The notes under the pieces were generated by a model that saw only the letters and a list, made by a program, of their open reading frames with translations, did not search any database and was not told the DNA's origin. A stretch of 64,000 nt of DNA from Candidatus Pacearchaeota archaeon. Its GTDB lineage: Archaea > Nanobdellota > Nanobdellia > UBA10117 > JAFCGA01. Below, piece by piece: positions 131 to 16,981 of this stretch; the stretch's first letter is position 1; the number at the start of each line of letters is the position of its first letter. Location of the stretch: assembly GCA_017608345.1 (NCBI GenBank), contig JAFCGA010000001.1, positions 171,036-235,035 on the forward strand, given 5' to 3'. The position numbers and the translations under genes were made by a program.

Positions 131-3971
<3,841 letters not shown>

Positions 3972-3979
3972 TAAGTAAT

Positions 3980-4240
3980 ATGGATATTAAAAAAATACTT
4001 TTGTCTAAGAATATTATATTAGGTAAAGATAAAACTCTTAGATTGCTAAAAAAAGGTAAGATATCTGAGATTTTGTTAGCGAATAATGTGCCAGAGCTAG
4101 TTAAAAAAGACATCACTAGCTTAGCTAATCTTGCTGGCGCTAAAGTTTCTGTACTTACATACACAAATGATGAGCTGGGTGCATTGTGTAAGAAACCTTT
4201 CACTGTATCAATAATTGGACTAACTAAAAAAATAGAATAG
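3980..4240 (+). CDS. rpl30e: 50S ribosomal protein L30e
   Basis: 86-aa ORF with L30e/L7Ae-fold pattern (GKDKTLRLLKKGKISEILLANN..ELGALCKKPFTVSIIG); conserved position after rpoA2. Confidence 0.85.
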   Translation: MDIKKILLSKNIILGKDKTLRLLKKGKISEILLANNVPELVKKDITSLANLAGAKVSVLTYTNDELGALCKKPFTVSIIGLTKKIE

Positions 4241-4248
4241 TAACGCTA

Positions 4249-4355
4249 ACACGTCGGAAGCAGCCTTTTAGGAAAAGGCTGGCGAAAAGAAGATACCTTT
4301 ACGCTGCTTCCTCGTGTCTTAGTTTTCGACATACTCGAGAACGAAAACCAAGATG
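4249..4355 (+). ncRNA. Unclassified structured RNA element / 5' leader, copy 1 (rpl30e-nusA spacer)
   Basis: Stem ACACG..GGAAGCAG / CTGCTTCC..CGTGT encloses hairpin agcctttt-agg-aaaaggct. A second hairpin cttagttttcg/cgaaaaccaag ends at the nusA ATG. Homologous copy at 19092-19171 (-). Confidence 0.35.
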
Positions 4356-4772
4356 GTTATAAAAAAGTACAGCGCTGAGAACTTGCAATGCATGAATCTT
4401 TTCAAGAGAGTAACTAGAATTATGCCTAAGGATTTTTTCGAGGTTGGCTCTGATCTCGTATTTATTGTAGATAAAATGCAAGTAGGAATAGCTCTCGGCA
4501 AAGGTGGAGCTAATATAAAGCGGCTTCGTGAGTTGATGGATAAGCGGATTAAAGTAGTTGGAGCTGGAAAAGATGCTAAAGAGCTAATCACTAATTTCAT
4601 CTTTCCGCTAAAACCCAAAAATATCGTTCAGGAGGACGCTACGATTAATATTGAATTCAATACTGGCTCTGAGCGGAGAGCACTTCTTGGGAATCAGCAA
4701 TCTCGGTTAAAGTTACTGAAAGAGACTGTTAAACGATACTTCCCGGAAATTAAAGAGATTCGGATACTGTAA
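4353..4772 (+). CDS. nusA: Archaeal NusA-like transcription termination/antitermination protein (KH domains)
   Basis: 139-aa ORF; KH-type GxxG (GIALGKGGANIKRLRE); size and position after rpl30e as in archaeal RNAP operons. Confidence 0.85.
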   Translation: MVIKKYSAENLQCMNLFKRVTRIMPKDFFEVGSDLVFIVDKMQVGIALGKGGANIKRLRELMDKRIKVVGAGKDAKELITNFIFPLKPKNIVQEDATINIEFNTGSERRALLGNQQSRLKLLKETVKRYFPEIKEIRIL

Positions 4773-4824
4773 AGCCATCCTAACCTTTTTAAACCCCTAA
4801 TTATTTACTCAACTATATACTACG

Positions 4825-5043
4825 GTGAAAACAATGGTTACACATGATATGAATAAAGATGAGCAAGTCGGATTCCACAAGGGAAGCGTAAGTACTTTAG
4901 TTAAAGAACGACAAGAACTAGTAAAGATGGTCTCAATCGTAGATCAGCTAATTCAGCTGCACGTAAAGGCGCTGAAGGATCTAGGTATAGATCTATCTCA
5001 GCAACAACAGCCAGCTACTGGAAAGCTAGAGGACAAAGTCTAA
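4825..5043 (+). CDS. Small hypothetical protein (coiled-coil-like)
   Basis: 72-aa ORF (GTG 4825 or ATG 4834); TATA-like tttttaaa 4786-4793; followed by hairpin ccgcg..cgcgg 5046-5064. Confidence 0.5.
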   Translation: MKTMVTHDMNKDEQVGFHKGSVSTLVKERQELVKMVSIVDQLIQLHVKALKDLGIDLSQQQQPATGKLEDKV

Positions 5044-5072
5044 AACCGCGAGACGTATACGCGGATAACAAT

Positions 5073-5091
5073 CTTTTTATAATCGCTATAC
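5073..5091 (+). promoter_or_regulatory. hicB promoter: TATA-like box fused to recurrent motif AATCGCTATAC
   Basis: ctttttataa 5073-5082 followed by aatcgctatac 5081-5091, 12 nt before the hicB ATG (5103); the motif recurs at 7 other intergenic sites. Confidence 0.4.
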
Positions 5092-5102
5092 TATCTTATA
5101 TT

Positions 5103-5309
5103 ATGAAATATACAGCAATCTTAGATCCGCAAGAAGAAGGCGGCTATACTGTTCAATGCTTAGAGATTCCTGGAGCGATTAGCCAAGGTGAGACTAAGGA
5201 AGAAGCTCTGGAAAATATCAAAGAAGCTATAGCGCTCATGCTTGATACTATTAAAGAAGAAGTAAGTGTGAGCCATAAAGAAATAATTAAGGTGACTATT
5301 AGTGCCTAA
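5103..5309 (+). CDS. hicB: HicB-family antitoxin (UPF0150-like)
   Basis: 68-aa ORF, MKYTAILDPQEEGGYTVQCLEIPGAISQGETKEEALENIKEAI pattern of HicB N-terminal domain; overlaps hicA by 8 nt. Confidence 0.8.
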   Translation: MKYTAILDPQEEGGYTVQCLEIPGAISQGETKEEALENIKEAIALMLDTIKEEVSVSHKEIIKVTISA

Positions 5310-5517
5310 GCTACCTGTTATTTCAGGTAAGAAAGCCATTTCTGCGTTGTTGAAGCTAGGATTTATTATTAAACGGCAGAAAGGTGATCATGTTATTCTA
5401 AATAAAGAAAGAATAAATTTCACAGTACCACTACATAAAACTCTAAAGAAAGGCACGTTGAAAGCTATATTAAGGCAAGCTCAGATAGATCTTGAGGAGT
5501 TCTTGGAAAAGCTTTAA
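5302..5517 (+). CDS. hicA: HicA-family mRNA interferase toxin
   Basis: 71-aa ORF (GTG start); HicA/YcfA pattern SGKKAISALLKLGF..RQKGDH..LHKTLKKGTLKAILRQAQI. Confidence 0.85.
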   Translation: MPKLPVISGKKAISALLKLGFIIKRQKGDHVILNKERINFTVPLHKTLKKGTLKAILRQAQIDLEEFLEKL

Positions 5518-5662
5518 GGCAAAACTATAAATAGCGCTGGAGAGTTCTAGTGATAATAACTAAAAATCTATTTAAGTAGATTTTTGGAACCAACGGACGA
5601 AGTTCCGTGGATCCGCGAAATTGCTCTGCAGTTTCTGTGGAATTGTAAATACGAGATTCACA

Positions 5663-6913
5663 ATGATAGAAATACAATGTTTAGGCGGCTTCCGCGAGGT
5701 CGGAAGTAACGCGGTTTTTATAAAAGGAAAGAAGAATTATATGTTCGATTTTGGACTAGATGTTTCATCTGGTCGGCCTGCTCTAATGCCAAAAGGCAAG
5801 ACAGACGCTCTGTTTATAACTCATGGTCATTTAGATCATTTAGGCTCTGCGCCTACTCTAGTTAAGCGGGACCACTGTGCGATTTACGCTACCAAGCCGG
5901 TCAAGGAGTACTCAGAATTATTGCTGAACGATGCTGTTAAAATAGCTAGAATCAAGGGCGTGCATCGCGATTATAATAAGATCGACATAAGGCGGACTCT
6001 GGCGCAATACAAAAATATTGTGTATAACAAGCCTATTCGGTTTGGGACAGATAGTATTACTGCTATCAATGCCGGCCATGCTCCCGGTTCTTGTTGCTTC
6101 TTGTTGAAGAGCGGAAAAAAGAAGATCCTCTATACTGGCGATCTTAAGATGGAAACCACTCCGCTAGTGGATGGAGCTGACTTCTCTAGTATTAAAAATC
6201 TCGATATTGCTATAATGGAAACAACTTATTCTTCGCGGGATCACCCTCCGCGAGCTACGGCTGAGAAAGACATGTTCAAGAGGGCAAATCAGACCATTCA
6301 GAAAGGCGGGATTGCTCTGATTCCTTCTTTTGCTAACAGAGCTGCTGATATTTTATTAGCACTTTATAAGAATAAAGCTAACTTTCCCATTTATCTAGAT
6401 GGAATGGCTAAGGCAGCCACAGAGATTGCTCTGAATAATCCAAAGTTCCTTCGTAACTCCATTATGTTAAAGAAAGCCTTGTCTAAGGTTCACATTATAC
6501 GAAACTGGAAAGAGCGGGCGCATATCACTAACGCTCCCTGCGCGATTGTAACAACTGGTGGGAGCTTAGACGGCGGTCCAGTTGTGGGCTATATTAAACA
6601 GCTGTATATGCGAACTGACTGTTCCCTGATCTTTACTGGCTTTCAATTCCCTGGCTCTGCTGGGCGGTATTTGCTAGATACTGGCAGGTATGTAAATGAG
6701 GAAATAGACTTTAAAATGAAAATGCCTATATCTCAGTTTGATCTTTCTGGTCACGCGGGTCGTAGTGAGCTAATGAACTTTGTTAAGACAGTTAGACCTA
6801 AGACAGTTATAGCTATGCACGGCGAGTATTGCGAAAAGTTTGCTACTGAGATTCGAGGGCGGTTTGGTGTTGAAGCGATTGCTCCTAAGAATGGGGAAGT
6901 TTTGAAGCTCTAG
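5663..6913 (+). CDS. Metallo-beta-lactamase / beta-CASP family ribonuclease (aCPSF2/RNase J-like)
   Basis: HGHLDHLG (HxHxDH) motif, beta-CASP-length C-terminal part ending ..AMHGE; ATG at 5663 preferred over the TTG at 5621 in the ORF track. Confidence 0.8.
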   Translation: MIEIQCLGGFREVGSNAVFIKGKKNYMFDFGLDVSSGRPALMPKGKTDALFITHGHLDHLGSAPTLVKRDHCAIYATKPVKEYSELLLNDAVKIARIKGVHRDYNKIDIRRTLAQYKNIVYNKPIRFGTDSITAINAGHAPGSCCFLLKSGKKKILYTGDLKMETTPLVDGADFSSIKNLDIAIMETTYSSRDHPPRATAEKDMFKRANQTIQKGGIALIPSFANRAADILLALYKNKANFPIYLDGMAKAATEIALNNPKFLRNSIMLKKALSKVHIIRNWKERAHITNAPCAIVTTGGSLDGGPVVGYIKQLYMRTDCSLIFTGFQFPGSAGRYLLDTGRYVNEEIDFKMKMPISQFDLSGHAGRSELMNFVKTVRPKTVIAMHGEYCEKFATEIRGRFGVEAIAPKNGEVLKL

Positions 6914-6939
6914 AGATATCAGAAGTTAAACAAATTATA

Positions 6940-7920
6940 CTAAACTACTCCCCTACATGCCTTTTCGAACAATGGCCTCCAAATATCCTCATGGTCTGTA
7001 AATAGCCTTTCTAGATGAACCGCGCAGTTAACTTTAATTGGATTATTCTCTTGCTTCACTAGAGGTAGAATCTCCTCTTTTCGCTCAGACAACATACATA
7101 TAAAGTCATATCTCCGAACTATTGCTTCTTTAGCGTTATTTTTTATATTTCCGAAAGAAGGTCCATATAATCCCATGCAGAACATAATTGCCCCATCGTG
7201 GCGTACTGGAAGTTTCCAGTCGCAGAGAGCGAATATTGATCCGCTGTACATATACATAAAATATCTATTAAAAGACGGCCCGTTTATGGTATGACTCAGA
7301 ACTTCTTCGTGTATCGATTCTCTATCCGCTTCGTGTAAAACCAGCGCTTCAGGCACATGTTTAAACGGAATTACTGAAAAAAATCTAAGGAGTCTTGGAT
7401 CTTTCGACGAATATAAACTTCGTGAAAATGGCTTGAATGTTGGTAATTTCTGAATCAAGCTATAAGCAGTATCCATATTTTTCTTTGTTAAAACTGCAGT
7501 AACGTGGATGCTCTTATCAGTACGAGAGCATAATTCTAAGATTCCGCCTACATCGAATGTTTCAAAGTTATCAGTATGAATGCTGTAAGTGATATTATCT
7601 ATACTCTCATTCTCTAAAGAAATTAATCGCTCTATATCTGAGCCGTTTGTAAATATAGATATCTTACGCTGTGACCCCATTGCATCTATTTTTTCAGCTA
7701 AATTATAACACTCGCTGGGCTCTCCTCCAGATATGTTGATTCTCGACGAATCAAAAGGGAGGATATTCTCTGTTGAGAAGGCAGATCTTATTTCAGCTGG
7801 AGTAAGAGTAGGACCTGTCGAAGTAGAATAATCTTTTTTACGTGCACAGTAGCTACACTGACCAGTTCTACTTGGTCCGCTACATTTGCTAGTTACGTCA
7901 AGCCATACTTCATTTATCAT
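6940..7920 (-). CDS. Radical SAM-like protein with atypical Cys spacing and SPASM/twitch-like C-terminal segment
   Basis: 326 aa; N-terminal CSGPSRTGQCSYC (CX8CX2C instead of CX3CX2C), ISGGEPS SAM-binding motif, later DGAIMFC..GPSFGNIKNN resembling the SPASM/twitch G-x-V-x-P-C..GN motif. Confidence 0.65.
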   Translation of the reverse strand: MINEVWLDVTSKCSGPSRTGQCSYCARKKDYSTSTGPTLTPAEIRSAFSTENILPFDSSRINISGGEPSECYNLAEKIDAMGSQRKISIFTNGSDIERLISLENESIDNITYSIHTDNFETFDVGGILELCSRTDKSIHVTAVLTKKNMDTAYSLIQKLPTFKPFSRSLYSSKDPRLLRFFSVIPFKHVPEALVLHEADRESIHEEVLSHTINGPSFNRYFMYMYSGSIFALCDWKLPVRHDGAIMFCMGLYGPSFGNIKNNAKEAIVRRYDFICMLSERKEEILPLVKQENNPIKVNCAVHLERLFTDHEDIWRPLFEKACRGVV

Positions 7921-7940
7921 ATATTACTACTCTCAAGTTC

Positions 7941-7973
7941 CCTTAAAAACCTTTTCCTTAGAAATCGCTATAC
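7941..7973. promoter_or_regulatory. TATA-like box plus recurrent motif CTTAGAAATCGCTATAC
   Basis: ccttaaaaacc 7941-7951 lies 21-31 nt upstream of the minus-strand ATG at 7920; motif at 7957-7973; the 13-mer gaaatcgctatac is identical at 51204-51216. Confidence 0.45.
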
Positions 7974-8105
7974 TGACCTTATATTTAATACTGAAGCAAT
8001 TTGGGACTGCGTATTCGGATTATATAGGGAAGACTGGAAGGGTGCTGCCTAAGTTTGGGGTTATAGCCACTAATAGTTATTATGCACAAGATACTCCTCC
8101 TGGAC

Positions 8106-8957
8106 TCATAGCTTATCTATTTGCTTCTCAATATATTGAATAGAATTAATACCAATAGTGATTATTGCATCGCAGTCTTTTTTTGCAAGGTTTGTATCTC
8201 TTAATGTTGCGGGATGACCAAATGTGTTTCTATCCCATTTTACAGACATAATCTTCGAATATTGAGAGATCGTAAGAAATTTCTCTTTTTTTAAAATCTT
8301 TATACAATCATGAAAAGTCCACTTATTTATTTCCTTAATTTGATAATTAATTTTCTTATTAGACTTCAATTTCTTAATATAATCTCTAATGGCCCTTTCA
8401 AGCGTTCTTCCAACAATAAAAACAGCTGTAGTATAGTAACCAATACTATATATATCAAGAGCTTCAATTAGATTCCTCTTGATTTTTTTCCTTAAAGAAT
8501 ATTTTCTATCCCTTCCGCCAAAGGGAATGAAAATGTTATCGAAACTGTTAAAGAAATTTCTTATGGAAATTTTTAAAGGAATAATAGTACTATTTAATTT
8601 GAGATGAGTATGCTTTCTTCCAAGAGACTCTTCAGCCTTATGTTCCGAAATTATTTTCTTTATCTTCTTAATATCAATATTTTCAAGATTATTTGCTCTA
8701 AGCTGCTTTAGATACTTCTTATGATTTTTATTAAAAAGAGAAATTTCTTTATTCAGTTTGTCCACGATCTCTTTTGTTCTCTTGAAAAATACATTCTTAG
8801 GATTTCTACCTTTTTTATCGTACATTAATGCAACTAACAAAACTCCATTAAAATCAGTCCGAAGTTGAAAAATTATGTCCTCAATCCTTTTCAGATGATA
8901 CGCTGTTGCAAATATTTCTTCGAAACCAACCATATAGTAAGAATGATGATTAATCAT
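8106..8957 (-). CDS. Hypothetical protein with C-terminal HEPN/DUF4145-like region
   Basis: 283-aa very AT-rich ORF; C-terminal helices ending in WDRNTFGHPA (R-x4-H, HEPN-type motif); no other family recognised. Confidence 0.45.
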   Translation of the reverse strand: MINHHSYYMVGFEEIFATAYHLKRIEDIIFQLRTDFNGVLLVALMYDKKGRNPKNVFFKRTKEIVDKLNKEISLFNKNHKKYLKQLRANNLENIDIKKIKKIISEHKAEESLGRKHTHLKLNSTIIPLKISIRNFFNSFDNIFIPFGGRDRKYSLRKKIKRNLIEALDIYSIGYYTTAVFIVGRTLERAIRDYIKKLKSNKKINYQIKEINKWTFHDCIKILKKEKFLTISQYSKIMSVKWDRNTFGHPATLRDTNLAKKDCDAIITIGINSIQYIEKQIDKL

Positions 8958-8989
8958 TTATAACAGTTTTGTGAATTCTAGCTTATGTC

Positions 8990-9259
8990 ATGCTGTCGCT
9001 TCGTTTCACTTACAAACACACTTATATGCCCAAACCACCTAAAACAAACATGCACACCCCGATAGTCAGGTCGGGTATTTTCTTAGTCGGTGGATTAGTG
9101 TCGATTAGTTTCCGAGAGGGACTTAATGAGTTCAAGAATCGTATGTTTGGAAAGTTTAACAAGAAGTTGGTGCGTGACGAGAGGAAGACGTATGTTCAGA
9201 TTGGTGTAGTGTTTATGATTATTTCAATCGGCTTGTTCGTGTATGCGGTTACTCACTAA
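8990..9259 (+). CDS. Hypothetical membrane protein
   Basis: 89-aa ORF with two hydrophobic segments; start uncertain (internal Met candidates). Confidence 0.4.
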   Translation: MLSLRFTYKHTYMPKPPKTNMHTPIVRSGIFLVGGLVSISFREGLNEFKNRMFGKFNKKLVRDERKTYVQIGVVFMIISIGLFVYAVTH

Positions 9260-9302
9260 CCGTCCAAAACCCTTATAACTCCCCCTTGCCACCAAAGAAG
9301 TA

Positions 9303-9455
9303 ATGAACTACAAAGCAATCTTCGCGGCAGGAATCCCATTCATCGGTGCAGGAATTGTTTTTATGACTTCGGTTAATAAAAGCATAGGTGTTGCATTGAT
9401 TGGCATAGGTGGAATGTTTATGATAATTGGAGGAAAGAACAAAGACAAATGGTAA
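9303..9455 (+). CDS. Small membrane protein (50 aa), below the ORF-track cutoff
   Basis: ATG 9303 to TAA 9453-9455: MNYKAIFAAGIPFIGAGIVFMTSVNKSIGVALIGIGGMFMIIGGKNKDKW, two Gly-rich TM helices; overlaps the next ORF in ATGGTAA. Confidence 0.45.
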   Translation: MNYKAIFAAGIPFIGAGIVFMTSVNKSIGVALIGIGGMFMIIGGKNKDKW

Positions 9456-9613
9456 AGAAAGACTCAATAACTATTCCAAAGAAAGCTCTCCTTTGGATTG
9501 CTCCTGCTATTGTAATCACAGCAATAATAATCGGAAAGCACCGGCCAGGAGATCTGCTTCTATTCTGGATCGGAATTACAATTGGATTTCTTGTCCATAG
9601 AAGTCTGAAATAA
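9449..9613 (+). CDS. Small membrane protein (54 aa), below the ORF-track cutoff
   Basis: ATG 9449 to TAA 9611-9613: MVKKDSITIPKKALLWIAPAIVITAIIIGKHRPGDLLLFWIGITIGFLVHRSLK; apparently translationally coupled to 9303-9455. Confidence 0.45.
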   Translation: MVKKDSITIPKKALLWIAPAIVITAIIIGKHRPGDLLLFWIGITIGFLVHRSLK

Positions 9614-9625
9614 GGCTATGGGCGG

Positions 9626-9967
9626 TTACTCACTGAGCTGTGCAGAAGCTGGAGATAAATAAGCATATTTCGGGTCTTTCCTAAGTTGATATACTCTCTC
9701 CAGTAGACGATTTACCCGACCATGCTCTACTTCTAAATTAATCTTACTGTCGGGGTTTCCCTTAACTTGTTGTTCAAATAGATTATATGCAGTAATCACT
9801 AGTGCAGGGAAATTCCAAAAGGTAAATACTTCATCAGGAATATGATTAGTTATCCCCTCGCGTATATTCTGTGGGAATATAAACTCTGATTCAAGAAGTT
9901 GAGAGAGATATTGTATATCCTCGCGTAATTTAATTTCTCCAGTAACGATATTAACGGTTATGTCCAT
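9626..9967 (-). CDS. Hypothetical protein
   Basis: 113-aa ORF, divergent from 10069 gene; no family recognised. Confidence 0.5.
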   Translation of the reverse strand: MDITVNIVTGEIKLREDIQYLSQLLESEFIFPQNIREGITNHIPDEVFTFWNFPALVITAYNLFEQQVKGNPDSKINLEVEHGRVNRLLERVYQLRKDPKYAYLSPASAQLSE

Positions 9968-10678: not shown

Positions 10679-11017
10679 TTAGACCTCAGCAGCTAAACCT
10701 TCCTTCACAACCCTCTCGAAAAAGTCTTTCTTTGCTTTGAGATAGTGCTCTCGAGATACTAGCCTCGCCGCATTCTTTATTCGCAGATATTCACTCCGAG
10801 CATTAGCATTAGTCTTCAAGTGCTCAAAGAAGATTTTATTCTGCGCAGTCGCGGGGTGATCTGGAGTTGATAAGAGAATATCTATCTCCCAATCGCCAAG
10901 CATGGTTTCGAATTTTTTCCATAGCTCGTCTATCTTTTTCTTCGGAGCGCCGTATCTCGAAACTAGCCGTCGTTCAGCAGATTTAAAAGTTGTAGAAGAT
11001 TTGAACAGTATATTCAG
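10679..11017 (-). pseudogene. Truncated GrpB (UPF0157)-like fragment
   Basis: Only the C-terminal GrpB-like part is present (..DHPATAQNKIFFEHLKTNANARSEYLRIKN..). The frame stays open upstream to 11017 with no ATG and no N-terminal nucleotidyltransferase-like part. Confidence 0.4.
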
Positions 11018-11111
11018 CTAAAATCACTCTTTCCAGTTAACGCTTACTCGAAGAGTATCCATATACGCAATTATAATAAAATTTATAAAGTTCGCTTTAC
11101 TAAAATAAGGT

Positions 11112-11327
11112 ATGGAACAATATCTCCTTAAACTACCTAATTATGAGATTTTTGGCGCAAATATGACTATTGATACACGTCTGAATGTTTATTCTATTGG
11201 AGTTCAGGCTTGTAAAAGTTGTCAGTGTGTTTGCCAATCGTGTATTGGTGGGAAATTGCCGGATGAATTAGACATCTTATGTGAAAAAGAAATAAAAGAC
11301 GCATTCAAAGAACTTTTGACTGTTTAA
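11112..11327 (+). CDS. Cys-rich small peptide, candidate RiPP precursor
   Basis: 71 aa with CKSCQCVCQSC block plus a sixth Cys; TATA-like atttataaag 11071-11080; first gene of a co-directional cassette with peptidase, radical SAM/SPASM and PqqD-like ORFs. Confidence 0.5.
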   Translation: MEQYLLKLPNYEIFGANMTIDTRLNVYSIGVQACKSCQCVCQSCIGGKLPDELDILCEKEIKDAFKELLTV

Positions 11328-11372
11328 TTCAAATGCTTCAAAATTATTTAGAGCGTTTCTATAGAATATGCT

Positions 11373-12032
11373 ATGAAGAAAATATTGGATTTGAATTTTT
11401 GCACTTTAATTTATTCAGATAAGGATGTTAATCGTGAAAAAAAACTAATTACTGATGCATTTAATTATAATACAAATTTTTATAAAATTAAAATTCCAAA
11501 ATTTGAAATACAGTTTGTTTATTCAAGAAACGAGTTTGATAAGATGTGGGGCAAAAAAACACTTAGTTTTGTCTCTGCATTCGCTAGAGATAAGAAGATT
11601 ATTATATTTGCGCACTCTATCTTTGATAAATCCACAATCTGGAAGAAAGAAAAATTTTCTGAAGGACTTATTCACGAGATTAATCACCTATTCTACCGCG
11701 AGCTAAGGAATGATGAATATGATCCATTGTGGTTATCTGAAGGTCTAGCAACATTTCTGCAACATCATAAAAAAAGATTTAATTACAAAAAGAAACTGAA
11801 AATAAAAAAAGAGATATTAGAAGAATCTTTTGAAAATATGACTATAGATAGTTATCAAATCTATACTTTATTTGTTGAATTCTTAATATTTAAATACGGA
11901 GAGAGAGAAATATTAAACTTAATAAAAAGACTAAAAGATGGAGAAAAATTAAATAATATCTTCCTACAGAAATATAATAAATCTTTTGATGAGTTAATTA
12001 AAGATGGAAACAAATACCAAAAAACTGCTTGA
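11373..12032 (+). CDS. Zinc metallopeptidase, gluzincin type (Peptidase_MA-like)
   Basis: 219 aa; HEINH followed 17 residues later by E within WLSEGLATF (HExxH-x17-E, M1-like WLxEG signature). Confidence 0.6.
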   Translation: MKKILDLNFCTLIYSDKDVNREKKLITDAFNYNTNFYKIKIPKFEIQFVYSRNEFDKMWGKKTLSFVSAFARDKKIIIFAHSIFDKSTIWKKEKFSEGLIHEINHLFYRELRNDEYDPLWLSEGLATFLQHHKKRFNYKKKLKIKKEILEESFENMTIDSYQIYTLFVEFLIFKYGEREILNLIKRLKDGEKLNNIFLQKYNKSFDELIKDGNKYQKTA

Positions 12033-13104
12033 AGTTGAGGATTTCAAAGACGCATATCAAGATACAATACTGCCTGATTGTAAATACTTAAAAATTAAAA
12101 GTCCTATCGCAACACAATTCGAATTGACAAGTAGATGCAATCAGAGATGCATTTTTTGTTATAATGTTTGGAAAGGGATTTGTTCTAAACAAAACTCTGT
12201 AACCCTATCTAAACAGAAGCAATTAAAAATTATTGATAAGATAATTGAAAATGAAATTTTTGATATTATTTTTTCAGGAGGAGAACCTCTTTTAGTTGAA
12301 TGGTTAGAAGACTTGATAAAAAAATGTTCAACTGCTAAAATGCGTACTACGATAATTACAAACGCTATCTTAATGACTGAAAAAAGAGCGAAACGTCTAA
12401 AAAATGCCGGATTAAGTGATATGCAAATATCTATTCATCATTATACTCCTAAAATCAATGATAAATTAACTAAAACAGAAGGCTCTTTTAATAAAACTAT
12501 TGTAGGAATAAAAAACGCGATAACGATATTCGGAGCCGGGAAGATTAATATTAATTTAGTTGCTATGCCTAAAACATATAAAGATATTTATAATATGGCA
12601 AAATTTTTACACAAACTCGGAATAATATCTTTTAGCGTAGCATCTCCAACTGCAACTGGAAAAATGGAGAAAGATAAAAATTTAGTAATTAATAAAAGAA
12701 TGTTTATAGAAATATACAAACAACTAATAAAAGCAAAAAAGGATTTTAATATTCATATCGGATTTACTGGCGGATTCCCTATCTGCTTACTACCTGAAGT
12801 AAATAAAAAAACAGTTGAAATGATTGGTAATTACTGTGACGCGGGGTTAAACCAGATAATTATTGGTCCTAATGGAGCATTAAGACCTTGTGTTTGTTTA
12901 GGGGAAGAATTAGGGAATATTCTAGAAGACAATCTAAAAGAAATCTGGAATAATAATAAATTTCTGTTAGATATTAGAAAAATGAAATTTGTACCTAAAG
13001 CATGCAAAGAATGCGAATATGTATCAATTTGTCGTGGAGGATGTAGGGCTTCTGCTCAAGGATATTTCGGAAAAATAAATGCGCTAGATCCGCTAATGAA
13101 ATAA
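12004..13104 (+). CDS. Radical SAM / SPASM-domain peptide-modifying enzyme
   Basis: 366 aa; TSRCNQRCIFCYN (CX3CX2C), FSGGEPLL, C-terminal GPNGALRPCVC..GNI and CKECEYVSICRGGCRA (SPASM-type auxiliary cluster motifs); overlaps the peptidase gene by 29 nt. Confidence 0.85.
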   Translation: METNTKKLLEVEDFKDAYQDTILPDCKYLKIKSPIATQFELTSRCNQRCIFCYNVWKGICSKQNSVTLSKQKQLKIIDKIIENEIFDIIFSGGEPLLVEWLEDLIKKCSTAKMRTTIITNAILMTEKRAKRLKNAGLSDMQISIHHYTPKINDKLTKTEGSFNKTIVGIKNAITIFGAGKININLVAMPKTYKDIYNMAKFLHKLGIISFSVASPTATGKMEKDKNLVINKRMFIEIYKQLIKAKKDFNIHIGFTGGFPICLLPEVNKKTVEMIGNYCDAGLNQIIIGPNGALRPCVCLGEELGNILEDNLKEIWNNNKFLLDIRKMKFVPKACKECEYVSICRGGCRASAQGYFGKINALDPLMK

Positions 13105-13105
13105 A

Positions 13106-13357
13106 ATGGACTTTGTAATTTTTAAGAATCCACATTTGAGATATAGAAAAGAAGACTTTGGTGGAGTTGCAAAACTTCAGCTTAAGACGTTTATACTTAA
13201 TAAAAATCAATACAAACTAATTAGTACTTTAAATCAATTCTTAGTTTATCGCTCCTTGGAAAATAAAGACAAATTACTAGTTGATAAATTAATTAAAGAT
13301 AATCTTCTTGTGAGATTAGCTATGAAAGAAGCTAAGAAACTTGGTTTTAGAGAATAA
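13106..13357 (+). CDS. Small PqqD-like protein (possible RiPP recognition element)
   Basis: 83-aa ORF starting 1 nt after the radical SAM stop; size, position and ..FILNKNQYKLISTLN.. segment fit stand-alone PqqD-family partners; weak sequence evidence. Confidence 0.4.
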   Translation: MDFVIFKNPHLRYRKEDFGGVAKLQLKTFILNKNQYKLISTLNQFLVYRSLENKDKLLVDKLIKDNLLVRLAMKEAKKLGFRE

Positions 13358-15373: not shown

Positions 15374-16981
15374 TTACTTTTTCTTTTTCTTCATGAAGAA
15401 GAAGTACGCTACTGCTGCTATTGCAATCACAGCTATAATCCAATACCAGTAAGTGCTCTTCTTTGGTGGTGCTGGTTCTGGAGCTGGTTCTTCTTGCTGC
15501 TCTGGTTCTGGAGCTGGTTCTTCGCCCATAGCTAGCTTTTCTTCACCAGTAATTACGAAGTAACTAAAACTAGAAACAGTTGCAGTATAAACTAGCTCTC
15601 CATTCAGATCTTCGGTCATTTTCGTGACTAGCTGCTTCCATTCATTACCTTCTAGATGGTTGAGTACGATTCTATCGCTATCAATATATCTTGCGTTCAA
15701 CCAAGTTTTAGGTACTTTGAAAGTAATCTCTCCGCTCTGGAGCTTATCTTCTATATTAGTTGCTTCAATCTTCAAGTACTGATAGACACCGCCAGTAGGT
15801 ACTGGTGCGTCTGCAGGTTTCGAAGATAAACTCTGGATACTTACTTTTACATTACTTACAGCTTCTGAAGACGTTATTGCTATTTCCTTAACTGCTATGT
15901 CTGCGCTATCGAAAGATACTTTCGAAGAAACGCCTGCTTCCATAGATGCAATTGTCTTAGCTTGGGTAGCTGCGGTCGTAGCAGTTGCTATTCCGCTGCC
16001 TGCACCTCCACCGCCTCCAGCACTAGATCGCCTTACATAGTAAGTAAATACATTCGAGGCTGAATTTCCAGCACTATCTGTAGCCGTACAAGTTGTGGTA
16101 TAAGTTCCATATTGAGTTGTATCTGGAATAGCTGCATATACAACGCTGCCCGGGCTTAGTGAACTTTCGATATTATCGCTAGCTGAACAAGCACAAGTTA
16201 TTTGCGCATCTTCCCATACACTTTCAGTATCGCAGGTGTGAACTATGCTCGGAGCAGTATTATCTATCTTTATACTATAATTGGAAGTCACATTCTCGTT
16301 GTTCGCTATATCCTTTGCCTTGAAGGATACTAGATACCATCCATCAGTATAGGTCGTCGTATCAACAGTTGCTATGTACCAATTCGCACCCCCACTGGCT
16401 GCATTGCTCATTGCTATCCATCCGCTATCCCCATCTGCGGTTGAATTAGCATATATTTGATAGAAAACGCTACTTGAATTCATACCCGAAACATCGGATG
16501 CAGTTATATTCAGAACATGCGTTGATCCAGTTAGCCACTCTAAAACACTGTGATTAGCGACTGTTGGGTTTCCAAGAGCAACAGTAAAAGTTCTTCCGAG
16601 AGTTACATATTGATCCGTACCGTTAGTACAATTAATAGTATAATTATATGTTACTCCTGCTGTGAATGTAACATTAGCATTAACATTATATGTAGAAGTA
16701 TTAAGTACACCTACTTGTGTATGCCAATCATTTGCAGAATTAGAATTATCTACGGTGCAATTAACCTTCCCGGCTGCACTTCCAGTTGTGTTAAAACTAC
16801 TATTATACGGAACTGTGTAAGTGAACGTAAAGGAGTCATTCTGACCCACATTAGAGTTATTCGCTGGTGCTGTAACTGAAACGGTCGTCGTGTCAAGAAC
16901 TGCTGCGCCAACGACAAATAAGCAAGCTGTAATCGCAAGCATCACTGTAGCCATCAATAAAAATTGTTTTTTAGATTTCAT
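15374..16981 (-). CDS. Cell-surface (S-layer-like) glycoprotein with PGF-pre-PGF-like domain and C-terminal TM anchor
   Basis: 535 aa; signal/TM N-terminus, many N-x-S/T sequons, ..VYQYLKIEATNIE..ITFKVPKTWL..SFSYFVITGE (PGF-pre-PGF-like), EEPAPEP repeats, C-terminal TM helix plus KKKKK. Confidence 0.7.
   Translation of the reverse strand: MKSKKQFLLMATVMLAITACLFVVGAAVLDTTTVSVTAPANNSNVGQNDSFTFTYTVPYNSSFNTTGSAAGKVNCTVDNSNSANDWHTQVGVLNTSTYNVNANVTFTAGVTYNYTINCTNGTDQYVTLGRTFTVALGNPTVANHSVLEWLTGSTHVLNITASDVSGMNSSSVFYQIYANSTADGDSGWIAMSNAASGGANWYIATVDTTTYTDGWYLVSFKAKDIANNENVTSNYSIKIDNTAPSIVHTCDTESVWEDAQITCACSASDNIESSLSPGSVVYAAIPDTTQYGTYTTTCTATDSAGNSASNVFTYYVRRSSAGGGGGAGSGIATATTAATQAKTIASMEAGVSSKVSFDSADIAVKEIAITSSEAVSNVKVSIQSLSSKPADAPVPTGGVYQYLKIEATNIEDKLQSGEITFKVPKTWLNARYIDSDRIVLNHLEGNEWKQLVTKMTEDLNGELVYTATVSSFSYFVITGEEKLAMGEEPAPEPEQQEEPAPEPAPPKKSTYWYWIIAVIAIAAVAYFFFMKKKKK

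What the first reader, a model, noticed from the sequence alone, without database searches (positions are those of the whole stretch)
11112..13357. Compact RiPP-like cassette: Cys-rich peptide, gluzincin peptidase, radical SAM/SPASM enzyme and PqqD-like protein
Four co-directional ORFs sit behind one TATA-like box (atttataaag, 11071-11080), either overlapping or 1-45 nt apart. ORF1 (71 aa) carries CKSCQCVCQSC plus a sixth Cys. ORF2 has HEINH-x17-E inside WLSEGLA, a gluzincin signature. ORF3 has CX3CX2C (CNQRCIFC) and SPASM-type C-terminal Cys motifs (CKECEYVSICRGGC). ORF4 (83 aa) starts 1 nt after ORF3 and has the size and position of a stand-alone PqqD/RRE partner. This is the canonical architecture for radical-SAM-matured peptides (sactipeptide, ranthipeptide or SCIFF-like), yet the Cys block is central and followed by an acidic helix, unlike the precursors I know. 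The cassette looks more AT-rich than its flanks, which suggests acquisition. The product class, the bonds formed and the role in a reduced-genome archaeon are all unknown.
Basis: partly seen in the sequence, partly recalled or inferred. Interest (0 to 1): 0.8.

Follow-up and report, generated by a model that had tools for sequence, protein, structure and literature searches.

The report
Archaeal radical-SAM cysteine-peptide maturation cassette
A four-gene cassette in a small archaeon encodes a cysteine-rich peptide plus the three proteins that most likely recognise, cross-link and trim it; the cassette is real, conserved in about fifty other genomes and metagenome contigs, and belongs to no curated family, but its chemistry and purpose are still unknown.

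Summary
Four co-directional genes encode a 71-aa Cys-cluster peptide, a minimal gluzincin peptidase with invariant catalytic residues, a radical SAM/SPASM enzyme and an 83-aa protein whose confident model matches RiPP recognition elements, PqqD included.

ORF3 scores best against peptide-modifying enzymes (SuiB, PqqE, SkfB) and reaches no curated heme, PQQ, mycofactocin or sulfatase-maturase cut-off. ORF4 has the PqqD/RRE fold. ORF1-like peptides sit next to the enzyme in every one of about 50 related loci with readable flanks.

The invariant unit is peptide + enzyme + RRE. The peptidase is usually present, but can be moved, replaced or absent.

Relatives occur in Woese-, Pace- and Nanoarchaeota MAGs and, more distantly, in Saccharibacteria, Bacteroidota and a gammaproteobacterial MAG. 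Flanking genes differ each time, and the cassette is the most AT-rich stretch of the window.

No Pfam or NCBIfam family covers the peptide or the RRE, and I found no paper describing the system. I file it as a new family within the known radical-SAM RiPP kind. Bond type, cleavage sites and biological role remain inferred.

The parts
11070..11090 (+). Archaeal promoter: purine/A-rich BRE-like stretch followed by the TATA box 'tttataaa' (11082-11089), 22-30 nt upstream of the ORF1 ATG. This implies a leaderless or very short-leader transcript.
   Evidence: Upstream regions of 23 loci lined up: a conserved gTATAGAAAt-cTTTAAAa element sits at the same distance from the peptide ATG. Function as a promoter is inferred from the archaeal BRE/TATA consensus (established knowledge); it is not shown.
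11112..11327 (+). ORF1, 71-aa precursor-type peptide.
   Evidence: about a dozen 50%-identity clusters of 54-76 aa relatives. Found beside the enzyme in every related locus with readable flanks. The AF2 model has no compact fold (pLDDT 56.6).
11139..11177 (+). Leader-type recognition motif NYEIFGANMTIDT (ORF1 residues 10-22), predicted as a beta-hairpin.
   Evidence: Conserved as YE[VI]FxANMT[VIL]DT in alignments A1 and A8. Strands 11-14 and 18-21 in the model. Binding to the RRE is inferred, not shown.
11211..11243 (+). Cys-cluster core CKSCQCVCQSC (ORF1 residues 34-44), the presumed site of modification.
   Evidence: C34, C37 and C44 are invariant and C39 and C41 nearly invariant in A8. Cys clusters are the only feature shared by all peptide variants in the wider family.
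11262..11321 (+). Acidic C-terminal helix ('follower', ORF1 residues 51-70). In relatives it usually ends LLAA.
   Evidence: Helix 51-70 with block pLDDT about 66-82. Conserved in the archaeal and Bacteroidota peptides, absent from the Saccharibacteria ones.
11373..12032 (+). ORF2, minimal (219 aa) MA-clan gluzincin metallopeptidase.
   Evidence: Peptidase_MA_2 E = 5.6e-6 (26.7 bits, below the cut-off of 32.4). All 15 family members hit it, best 1.6e-9. H101, E102, H105, W120, E123, G124 and Y161 are invariant. The profile aligns to the ERAP/APN catalytic core.
12004..13104 (+). ORF3, radical SAM / SPASM enzyme. CX3CX2C at C45/C49/C52; SPASM-region Cys at C261, C278, C296, C334, C337, C343 and C347.
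   Evidence: Pfam Radical_SAM 82.2 bits and SPASM 38.7 bits. No NCBIfam equivalog cut-off reached. Invariant Cys in A4. Best solved relatives are SuiB, PqqE and SkfB.
13106..13357 (+). ORF4, stand-alone RiPP recognition element (PqqD-like fold) with an invariant R-x-E-x-[FY]-G-G motif.
   Evidence: AF2 pLDDT 91.5. Foldseek top matches are nearly all RREs: MccB clamp, PbtF, TigE, PqqD 5sxy, SuiB, TbiB1, ThcOx. Lies directly downstream of the enzyme in every family locus.

Best explanation
This is a self-contained operon for maturing a peptide with a radical SAM enzyme, i.e. a RiPP-type system.

Proposed mechanism:
1. One BRE/TATA promoter drives all four genes. The overlapping or abutting reading frames suggest translational coupling.
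2. ORF1 is the substrate. Its N-terminal beta-strand motif (YE[VI]FxANMT[VIL]DT) is captured by the stand-alone RRE (ORF4), probably by adding a strand to the RRE's beta-sheet.
3. The RRE presents the flexible Cys-cluster core to ORF3. ORF3 cleaves SAM at its CX3CX2C cluster, abstracts a hydrogen atom, and uses its SPASM auxiliary clusters to install covalent cross-links that involve the cysteine sulfurs. The most likely product is a set of thioethers of the sacti/ranthi type.
4. The enzyme family has seven invariant Cys in the SPASM region, one short of the eight ligands needed for two [4Fe-4S] clusters. That would leave one iron free to bind a substrate thiolate.
5. The gluzincin (ORF2) then removes the leader and/or the acidic C-terminal follower.

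No exporter or immunity gene travels with the cassette, so the product may act inside the cell or leave by a general route.

Shown: the genes, their family and fold assignments, the invariant catalytic residues, and the strict co-occurrence of peptide, enzyme and RRE.

Inferred: that ORF1 is the substrate, the leader-RRE contact, the bond type, the cleavage by ORF2, and the biological role.

The 0.7 confidence applies to 'ORF1 is matured by ORF3 and ORF4'. For thioether as the specific bond I would give about 0.4.
For: ORF3 passes the Pfam Radical_SAM and SPASM cut-offs. Its invariant Cys fit CX3CX2C plus the SPASM pattern C278-x12-G291-x4-C296 and C334-x2-C337-x5-C343-x3-C347, with C261 upstream (and the sequence). 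Its best solved relatives by profile are peptide modifiers: SuiB 2.4e-30, PqqE 8.9e-25 and SkfB 9.2e-23, ahead of anSME at 2.7e-18.

The ORF4 model has pLDDT 91.5. Nearly all Foldseek matches down to rank 43 are RREs, and the top thirty-odd reach TM 0.56-0.64 over the whole 81 residues. 4 of 22 family members weakly hit the MftB model.

ORF1 relatives are adjacent to the enzyme in every locus with readable flanks, across about 57 non-duplicate loci from two collections. This holds even where the enzyme is only 36-45% identical and the peptide sequence is unrecognisable apart from its Cys cluster. Cys-cluster ORFs are about 15-fold enriched near the enzyme.

The ORF1 model is unfolded apart from a beta-hairpin and a C-terminal helix, as expected for a substrate peptide.

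The peptidase catalytic residues are invariant down to 24% identity, and all 15 members hit Peptidase_MA_2. The promoter is conserved.
Against: There are no biochemical data of any kind.

No acceptor residue is conserved between the core variants, so the bond type cannot be read from the sequence.

ORF4 gives no Pfam PqqD hit in any of 22 members, and its profile finds no RRE in the PDB by sequence. The assignment rests on a predicted fold with modest Foldseek E-values (best 0.015).

ORF2 is below Pfam's gathering score in the window protein (26.7 against 32.4). It is absent, moved or replaced in some loci, so it is not obligatory.

The lack of an exporter or immunity gene is unusual for a secreted antimicrobial RiPP.
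Confidence: 0.7

Rival explanations
1. The machinery is the same but the product is different. The cassette would be the front end of a peptide-derived cofactor or metal-binding-molecule pathway, like PqqA/D/E/F or MftA/B/C/E. The rSAM would cross-link residues in the Cys cluster, and the peptidase would excise a small sulfur-rich product, or leave a metallothionein-like peptide, that works inside the cell.
For: The gene set (peptide, PqqD-like RRE, rSAM/SPASM, zinc peptidase) mirrors the first steps of PQQ and mycofactocin synthesis (established knowledge). PqqE is the second-best solved relative. The only curated model that more than one ORF4-family member touches is MftB. No exporter or immunity gene occurs in any clade. 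CxCxC spacing resembles metallothionein-type metal sites (my own knowledge).
Against: No downstream tailoring genes (equivalents of PqqB/C or MftD/F) are conserved. ORF3 scores far below the PqqE (112 against 381) and MftC (94 against 265) cut-offs. The number and spacing of Cys vary widely between clades (3 to 8 Cys), which fits a single defined small molecule poorly.
Confidence: 0.15
2. ORF3 is an anSME-like oxidase that converts the peptide cysteines to formylglycine (or a thioaldehyde) and makes no cross-links.
For: anSME is a rSAM/SPASM enzyme that acts on Cys and is a significant match (2.7e-18). Cys is the only residue common to all the cores.
Against: anSME ranks below SuiB, PqqE and SkfB, and no anSME model is among the top 25 NCBIfam hits. 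No sulfatase is nearby. By inspection the cores lack the C-x-[PA]-x-R sulfatase motif. anSMEs do not use a separate RRE (my own knowledge).
Confidence: 0.05
3. ORF1 is not a substrate. It would be a small Cys-rich metal or Fe-S protein, for example an electron donor or chaperone for the rSAM, and the true substrate lies elsewhere.
For: CxxCxCxCxxC could ligate metals. The core sequence within the main archaeal clade is unusually fixed (CKSCQCNC).
Against: The AF2 model is disordered around the Cys cluster. Cys number and spacing change drastically between clades while the enzyme stays 36-45% identical. An RRE and a peptidase travel with it, which makes sense only for a peptide substrate.
Confidence: 0.05
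4. ORF3 is a tetrapyrrole enzyme (AhbD/NirJ-type 'AdoMet-dependent heme synthase'), as some source annotations call its homologues.
For: The best NCBIfam hit is NirJ2 (151 bits) and AhbD scores 115 bits. JGI names several homologues 'AdoMet-dependent heme synthase'.
Against: Both scores are far below the cut-offs of 500. No heme-pathway genes lie nearby. The strict linkage to a peptide and an RRE across about 50 loci is unexplained by a tetrapyrrole role.
Confidence: 0.02

Closest known systems
SCIFF / ranthipeptide systems (e.g. CteA-CteB; TIGR03973 + TIGR03974)
   Same: A short Cys-rich ribosomal peptide is paired with a radical SAM/SPASM maturase, and recognition goes through an RRE-type domain. 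The expected chemistry involves the cysteine sulfur.
   Different: ORF1 hits no SCIFF or other NCBIfam model. CteB is only a distant match (5wgg, 1.1e-12, 51 bits, against 109 bits for SuiB). Here the RRE is a separate 83-aa protein, not an N-terminal domain of the enzyme. The Cys core is central, flanked by a leader and a conserved acidic follower helix. A gluzincin peptidase is part of the operon. The hosts are DPANN archaea.
PQQ and mycofactocin front-end modules (PqqA/D/E/F; MftA/B/C/E)
   Same: The four parts are the same: a small peptide, a stand-alone PqqD-family chaperone, a ~360-aa rSAM/SPASM enzyme and a peptidase. PqqE is the second-best solved relative. MftB is the only curated model touched by more than one ORF4-family member (4 of 22).
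   Different: ORF3 is far below the PqqE and MftC cut-offs (112 against 381 and 94 against 265). The peptide has no Glu-x3-Tyr or C-terminal Val-Tyr, only Cys clusters. No PqqB/C or MftD/F equivalents are present.
Sactipeptide systems with stand-alone or fused RREs (SkfB, AlbA and ThnB types)
   Same: An rSAM/SPASM enzyme forms Cys-derived thioethers on a leader-bearing peptide. SkfB is the third-best solved relative (9.2e-23).
   Different: There is no hairpin-like arrangement of Cys donors facing distant acceptor residues. No ABC exporter or immunity genes accompany it. The SkfB, StsB and other sacti NCBIfam models score far below their cut-offs.
Uncharacterised Haft-type rSAM/SPASM peptide cassettes (SynChlorMet ScmE/F, GeoRSP, ACGX)
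   Same: Among the highest-scoring NCBIfam models: ScmE 120 bits, GeoRSP 114 bits, ACGX 87 bits. These are also compact cassettes of a Cys-containing peptide, a rSAM/SPASM enzyme and, for GeoRSP, a PqqD-family chaperone. One ORF4-family member weakly hits the GeoRSP PqqD model.
   Different: All scores are far below the cut-offs of 400. The precursor families are different. Those systems are bacterial, and their chemistry is equally undefined, so they offer no functional transfer.
M1-family leader peptidases of RiPP pathways (AplP-type, class III lanthipeptides; from my own knowledge)
   Same: A zinc gluzincin with HExxH...E is used to trim a RiPP leader. The ORF2 profile aligns to the M1 catalytic core.
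   Different: ORF2 is only 219 aa and lacks the GxMEN exopeptidase motif and the N- and C-terminal domains of M1 enzymes (by inspection). It is encoded inside the operon.

Membership tests
Radical SAM superfamily (PF04055) | CX3CX2C cluster motif and a Pfam score above the gathering cut-off | tested here: met
   C45-x3-C49-x2-C52 is invariant in 35 homologues. Score 82.2 bits against a cut-off of 29.5.
SPASM subfamily (PF13186) | C-terminal Cys motif CX9-15GX4C ... CX2CX5CX3C for auxiliary Fe-S clusters | tested here: met
   38.7 bits against a cut-off of 21.5. C278-x12-G291-x4-C296 and C334-x2-C337-x5-C343-x3-C347 are invariant, plus C261. There is no trailing eighth Cys.
SCIFF / ranthipeptide (TIGR03973 precursor + TIGR03974 maturase) | The precursor matches the SCIFF model | tested here: not met
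   ORF1 has 0 NCBIfam families at E <= 1.
SCIFF / ranthipeptide (TIGR03973 precursor + TIGR03974 maturase) | The maturase reaches the equivalog cut-off and carries a fused N-terminal RRE | tested here: not met
   The SCIFF maturase model is not among the 25 best NCBIfam hits, and none of those reaches its cut-off. CteB scores only 51 bits. ORF3 has only about 35 residues before the cluster motif, and the RRE is a separate gene.
Sactipeptide / ranthipeptide chemistry | Thioether between a Cys sulfur and an alpha (sacti) or beta/gamma (ranthi) carbon | not testable with these tools
   This needs MS/MS and NMR of the modified peptide.
PqqE (TIGR02109) and MftC (TIGR03962) | Equivalog score cut-off | tested here: not met
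   112.4 bits against 381.35, and 93.6 bits against 265.
Heme-pathway rSAMs NirJ2 (TIGR04055) and AhbD (TIGR04545) | Equivalog score cut-off, and heme-pathway genes in the neighbourhood | tested here: not met
   151.4 and 114.8 bits against cut-offs of 500. The neighbours are RNase P p30, L15e, HisRS, DUF4013 and a GrpB fragment.
Anaerobic sulfatase-maturating enzyme | A sulfatase substrate gene nearby, and closest similarity to anSME | tested here: not met
   No sulfatase among the neighbours. anSME (69 bits) ranks below SuiB (109), PqqE (91) and SkfB (84).
PqqD family / RiPP recognition element | Sequence match to Pfam PqqD (PF05402) or to curated PqqD-family models | tested here: inconclusive
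   No PqqD Pfam hit in 22 members at E <= 1. 4 of 22 hit MftB (best 9e-4) and 1 of 22 hits the GeoRSP PqqD model. The profile finds no RRE in the PDB by sequence.
PqqD family / RiPP recognition element | Winged-helix fold: an N-terminal beta-sheet followed by a helical bundle | tested here: met
   pLDDT 91.5, with strands 3-7, 11-16, 19-24 and 27-32 followed by helices. Foldseek top matches are nearly all RREs, including PqqD 5sxy (TM 0.60), TigE (0.64), PbtF RRE and MccB (0.58). The only other matches are two bacillamide BmdB-BmdC complex entries.
PqqD family / RiPP recognition element | Binds the leader of the cognate precursor | not testable with these tools
   This needs a binding assay or a co-structure.
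MA-clan gluzincin peptidase (PF13485 Peptidase_MA_2) | HExxH plus a downstream Glu as the third zinc ligand | tested here: met
   H101, E102, H105 and E123 are invariant in 15 members down to 24% identity. They align to the ERAP/APN HExxH...WLxEG segment.
MA-clan gluzincin peptidase (PF13485 Peptidase_MA_2) | Pfam gathering score | tested here: inconclusive
   The window protein scores 26.7 bits against 32.4. All 15 family members match at E < 0.01, best 1.6e-9.
M1 aminopeptidase (PF01433) | GxMEN exopeptidase motif and multi-domain architecture | tested here: not met
   There is no GxMEN in the 219-aa sequence (by inspection). Peptidase_M1 scores 19.2 bits against a cut-off of 27.7.
Known anti-phage defence systems (PADLOC-DB 2.0) | Any of the four proteins matches a defence-system model specifically | tested here: not met
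   Only generic rSAM-core hits of ORF3 to pVip models (about 71 bits over residues 35-203). ORF1, ORF2 and ORF4 have no hits.

The most novel reading that the evidence does not exclude
The cassette may make a new class of sulfur-cross-linked peptide, or a peptide-derived thiol cofactor or metal binder. The chemistry would act on closely spaced cysteines (CxC, CxxC) and would need no conserved acceptor residue, so it would be a bond type not yet described for rSAM/SPASM enzymes. The cassette is spread patchily through ultra-small symbiotic lineages in both domains (DPANN archaea and Saccharibacteria), so the product could be a factor in the episymbiont lifestyle, for example host interaction, metal scavenging or inter-microbial conflict.
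Probability: 0.25. Interest if true: 0.8.

Novelty: new member of a known kind. Interest (0 to 1): 0.55.

Why it matters
Surveys with standard mining tools report very few biosynthetic clusters in DPANN and CPR genomes (PMC12153355; bioRxiv 10.64898/2026.04.17.719132). To my knowledge, experimentally characterised archaeal RiPPs are scarce.

This system is compact at 2.3 kb and strongly conserved: the enzymes are up to 78% identical across MAGs. It spans both domains, and no Pfam or NCBIfam family covers its peptide or its recognition protein.

The cassette is small and self-contained, so it can be tested directly by heterologous co-expression. A positive result would define the substrate scope of an unassigned rSAM/SPASM clade. 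It would also add an archaeal precursor family to RiPP-mining rules and give a first indication of what specialised peptide chemistry ultra-small archaea retain despite genome reduction.

If the bond turns out to be an ordinary thioether, the result is a useful but incremental addition to the sacti/ranthipeptide family.

Tried and rejected
1. The word-indexed homologue search for ORF1 found nothing. This was a sensitivity artefact: the exhaustive phmmer search and the locus-context analysis found the family.

2. The SBBP beta-propeller similarity of the ORF1 leader (Pfam E = 0.028; a 1,975-aa protein with 12 matches) is rejected. Twelve identical repeats each share only 9 of 24 residues with ORF1, and the repetition inflated the E-value.

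3. tRNA-linked integration is rejected. The GC-rich motif upstream of several cassettes is not a tRNA. There are no credible flanking direct or inverted repeats.

4. No carriage on a mobile element was found. There is no family member in IMG/VR, in plasmids (best 28% identity) or in phages (best 26%).

5. The link to known defence systems is rejected: PADLOC gives only generic viperin-core hits.

6. A profile-profile test of ORF4 against MftB or PqqD sets taken from the distant Nocardia and PQQ loci was abandoned. Those enzymes carry N-terminal extensions, with no separate small gene, and ORF calling in high-GC DNA was too noisy.

7. The sigma-70 promoter and intrinsic-terminator scan is uninformative for an archaeon. 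Rfam found nothing in the cassette.

8. Searches for exporters or other recurring partners in the bacterial and divergent archaeal loci found only unrelated genes.

9. Seven literature searches found no description of the system (papers read).


Full report
**1. The observation**

- ORF1, 11112-11327, 71 aa
- ORF2, 11373-12032, 219 aa
- ORF3, 12004-13104, 366 aa
- ORF4, 13106-13357, 83 aa

They are separated by a 45-nt gap, a 29-nt overlap and a 1-nt gap. Every quoted motif is present: CKSCQCVCQSC plus C57 in ORF1, HEINH-x17-E within WLSEGLA in ORF2, and CNQRCIFC and CKECEYVSICRGGC in ORF3.

The only error is the position of the TATA-like box. 'tttataaa' lies at 11082-11089, 10 nt to the right of the stated coordinates.

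The cassette is AT-rich: GC is 0.285 against 0.381 for the window. It is the lowest-GC stretch of its size in the whole 64 kb (rank 4 of 618 sliding windows).

**2. What each gene is**

*ORF3* passes the Pfam cut-offs for Radical_SAM (82.2 bits) and SPASM (38.7 bits).
- Across 35 homologues the invariant cysteines are C45/C49/C52 (the SAM cluster) and C261, C278, C296, C334, C337, C343 and C347.
- These fit the SPASM pattern C-x12-G-x4-C ... C-x2-C-x5-C-x3-C. That makes seven auxiliary-region cysteines, not eight.
- No curated NCBIfam equivalog is reached. The best scores are NirJ2 151/500, ScmE 120/400, AhbD 115/500, GeoRSP 114/400, PqqE 112/381 and MftC 94/265.
- Against solved structures, the family profile scores best with peptide modifiers: SuiB (2.4e-30), PqqE (8.9e-25) and SkfB (9.2e-23). 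These are ahead of anSME (2.7e-18), TigE and CteB.

*ORF2* hits Peptidase_MA_2 at E = 5.6e-6, which is below the gathering score (26.7 against 32.4 bits).
- All 15 family members I collected hit that model (best 1.6e-9), and nine hit Peptidase_M1.
- H101, E102, H105, W120, E123, G124 and Y161 are invariant down to 24% identity.
- The profile aligns its HExxH...W[LI]xEG segment to the catalytic core of ERAP1/2 and aminopeptidase N.
- At 219 aa and with no GxMEN motif, it is a minimal gluzincin and not an M1 aminopeptidase.

*ORF4* has no Pfam hit and only faint sequence links to PqqD-family models: MftB in 4 of 22 members (best 9e-4) and GeoRSP-PqqD in one.
- Its AlphaFold model is confident (pLDDT 91.5). 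It has four beta-strands followed by helices.
- Nearly all Foldseek matches down to rank 43 are RiPP recognition elements: the MccB peptide clamp, PbtF RRE, TigE, SuiB, ThcOx, the McbBCD complex, PqqD (5sxy, TM 0.60), TbiB1 and lasso B1. The only other entries are two of the bacillamide BmdB-BmdC complex.
- The top thirty-odd matches have TM 0.56-0.64 over the whole 81 residues. The E-values are modest (best 0.015).
- I therefore call ORF4 a stand-alone RRE of PqqD-like fold, divergent in sequence, with an invariant R-x-E-x-[FY]-G-G motif.

*ORF1* has no family hit.
- The word-indexed search found only itself. The exhaustive phmmer search found about a dozen 50%-identity clusters of 54-76 aa peptides.
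- The pattern they share is YE[VI]FxANMT[VIL][DN]T, then about 10-14 variable residues, then C[KQ]SCQCNC[RHQ]xC, then an acidic helix that usually ends LLAA.
- The AlphaFold model is not a folded domain (pLDDT 56.6). It shows a short beta-hairpin over the N-terminal motif, a disordered Cys core and a C-terminal helix. That is what a leader-core-follower precursor should look like.

**3. Conservation of the system**

ORF3 has more than 100 close homologues at 36-78% identity. I fetched their genomic contexts by exact look-up, from one genome per species and from metagenome contigs. HMM scores define the family cleanly: full-length members score above 440 bits and unrelated rSAM/SPASM enzymes score below about 220.

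Across about 57 non-duplicate family loci:
- An ORF4-type RRE lies immediately downstream of the enzyme wherever the contig continues.
- A Cys-cluster peptide lies within about 1.1 kb wherever there is enough flank. Seven loci are cut by contig ends. Three apparent exceptions were artefacts of my filters.

This holds even where the enzyme is only 36-45% identical and the peptide is unrecognisable apart from its cysteines. Core variants include:
- CE[KR]PCVCVCVC[KR]HG
- CRATCRGGCRGCLGCRRC
- CKCRCKCHTCHCEC
- CQCHCQCQCQ
- CKDNCKCYEPPCECKCVACRQQC
- minimal three-Cys forms, CKCQAC and CNCRTNC

Small ORFs with at least 5 Cys in 16 residues occur at 4.03 per 10 kb near the enzyme, against 0.27 per 10 kb elsewhere in the fetched DNA.

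The peptidase is the variable part:
- upstream of the enzyme in the main archaeal clade
- downstream in L016, L017 and L022
- on the opposite strand in several Saccharibacteria-type loci
- replaced by an unrelated 349-367 aa HEGAH protein with no Pfam hit in L018, L019 and L022
- absent in Labilibaculum and some others

The invariant unit is therefore peptide + rSAM/SPASM + RRE.

**4. Hosts, mobility and expression**

Record titles place the close clade in Woesearchaeota, Pacearchaeota and Nanoarchaeota MAGs. More distant members are in Saccharibacteria, a Bacteroidales MAG, Labilibaculum euxinus and a gammaproteobacterial MAG.

The window itself is archaeal: it encodes RNase P p30 and ribosomal protein L15e and uses BRE/TATA promoters. 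Its DPANN affiliation is inferred only from the nearest homologues.

Evidence that the cassette moves:
- Flanking genes differ between loci.
- The archaeal cassettes keep 0.26-0.31 GC while their flanks range up to 0.40.
- A 74-aa remnant that matches only the C-terminal end of GrpB abuts the window's cassette.

I found no vector or scar: no tRNA, no flanking repeats, and no family member in viral contigs, phages or plasmids.

A conserved gTATAGAAAt-cTTTAAAa element sits about -45 to -22 from the peptide ATG in almost all archaeal loci. This supports a single promoter and a leaderless or near-leaderless transcript. That it functions as a promoter is inferred.

No exporter, immunity gene or other recurrent partner is present in any clade.

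**5. The most likely mechanism**

I read the system as a RiPP-type maturation pathway:
1. The RRE (ORF4) binds the beta-strand leader motif of ORF1.
2. It delivers the flexible Cys core to ORF3, which uses SAM-derived radical chemistry and its auxiliary clusters to install cross-links involving the cysteine sulfurs.
3. The gluzincin trims the leader and/or the follower.

The seven-cysteine auxiliary region leaves one cluster iron without a protein ligand. In CteB such a site binds a substrate cysteine (my own knowledge). That fits thioether formation but proves nothing.

Shown: the gene identities, the fold, the invariant catalytic residues and the co-occurrence. Inferred: the substrate relation, the leader contact, the bond type, the cleavage and the role.

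Only cysteine is shared among the core variants, and no acceptor residue is conserved. The bond could therefore go to a backbone alpha-carbon (sacti-type), or it could be something not yet described.

**6. Rivals**

- *Cofactor or metallophore pathway* (0.15). The same machinery could be the front end of a peptide-derived cofactor or metal-binder pathway of the PqqA/D/E/F or MftA/B/C/E type. The missing exporter and the PqqE and MftB similarities favour this. The variable Cys number and the absence of tailoring genes count against it.
- *anSME-like oxidation of Cys to formylglycine* (0.05).
- *ORF1 as a metal or Fe-S mini-protein that is not a substrate* (0.05).
- *The 'heme synthase' source annotation* (0.02). 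The scores and the context effectively exclude it.
- *A defence role.* The only hint is the Labilibaculum locus, where a peptidase-less copy sits in one co-directional run with TIR, SLATT, ThsB-TIR and KAP-NTPase genes. PADLOC gives no specific hit.

**7. Comparison with known systems, and novelty**

The system works like the SCIFF/ranthipeptide and sactipeptide systems and like the front ends of the PQQ and mycofactocin pathways. It fails every curated membership test that I could run for those families (see the membership table).

Neither the peptide nor the RRE has a Pfam or NCBIfam family. I found no description in the searchable literature. Surveys report very few BGCs in DPANN and CPR genomes.

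The architecture is canonical for radical-SAM RiPPs, so I rate it a new member, that is a new family, of a known kind. About one chance in four remains that the chemistry or role is new.

Interest is moderate to high for RiPP and DPANN specialists, mainly because the 2.3-kb cassette can be tested directly by co-expression.

Noticed in passing
L006 366-7303 (same region as L015; Labilibaculum euxinus A4, WTCR01000004.1): The bacterial three-gene version (peptide 4775-4957, rSAM 5001-6098, RRE 6101-6325, no peptidase) lies in one co-directional run with a KAP NTPase, a ThsB-like TIR, a SLATT protein, a TIR_2 protein (4145-4693) and a 322-aa TIR protein that starts 10 nt after the RRE (6335-7303). 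It may be a hitch-hiker in a defence island or may be functionally linked.
   Followed up: partly
L018 4225-5274, L019 4423-5472, L022 4811-5914: In one archaeal subclade the MA-peptidase slot between the peptide and the rSAM is filled by an unrelated 349-367 aa protein. It carries an HExxH motif (ILHEGAHLIL) and has no Pfam hit, so it may be a different metalloprotease recruited to the same job.
   Followed up: partly
L022 7436-9671: A second module lies downstream of the cassette: a truncated rSAM ORF (7436-7909), an ORF2-type peptidase (7916-8575) and another rSAM/SPASM enzyme (8541-9671, 376 aa, only 99 bits to the family HMM). A further rSAM lies upstream (2269-3762, minus strand).
   Followed up: no
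window 10679-10903 (-): A 74-aa ORF matches only the C-terminal end of GrpB (profile positions 97-158 of 159). It is a gene remnant directly upstream of the cassette, which fits a past rearrangement or insertion at this site.
   Followed up: partly
window 6940-7920 (-): A second, unrelated radical SAM protein (326 aa; Pfam Radical_SAM 31.5 bits, just above the cut-off) lies about 3 kb upstream of the cassette. Its function was not examined.
   Followed up: no
window 15374-16981 (-): A 535-aa Thr/Ser/Asn-rich protein with an N-terminal signal-like segment, a C-terminal transmembrane segment and a Lys-rich tail. It is probably a surface protein. It has only a weak hit to the CD1107-like family.
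   Followed up: no
L011, L090, L091, L096, L098, L102, L105: about 90 nt upstream of the peptide ATG (alignment A9): A subclade shares a conserved non-coding block upstream of the promoter: AGATTTATTTAGAAATAATCT (an imperfect palindrome), a T-run and CCGCCGCCC. Upstream of that block the sequences diverge. It may mark the left edge of the mobile unit or a regulator site. It is not a tRNA. The window does not have it.
   Followed up: partly
L008 (JAFCCB010000006.1, labelled Dojkabacteria) and L010 (DAIQOR010000001.1, labelled 'bacterium'): These contigs carry the archaeal-type cassette at 74-76% identity. L010 also encodes proteins with archaeal pilin-like N-termini (MKKKRGLSPVIATVLLIAMVVV...) just downstream. 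The bins or labels are probably wrong and the contigs archaeal.
   Followed up: no
L005 6392-8200: A 602-aa protein with 44 cysteines and an N-terminal signal-like segment lies directly downstream of the cassette in one archaeal MAG. It is not seen in other loci.
   Followed up: no
window 11139-11210 (ORF1 residues 10-33); P0136: The peptide's leader region resembles SBBP or tail-fibre beta-hairpin repeats (NLEVGGANLFVDTQTSRVGVG, 12 copies in a 1,975-aa protein). Each repeat shares only 9 of 24 residues, so I judge it a repeat-inflated chance match, although it agrees with the predicted beta-hairpin.
   Followed up: yes
L023 2043-3050; L025 97-982: Saccharibacteria-type loci have a Fic-like protein (its sequence shows HPFVDGNGR) and a possible toxin-antitoxin-like pair near the cassette. 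This suggests variable, accessory-gene neighbourhoods. No family search was run on them.
   Followed up: no
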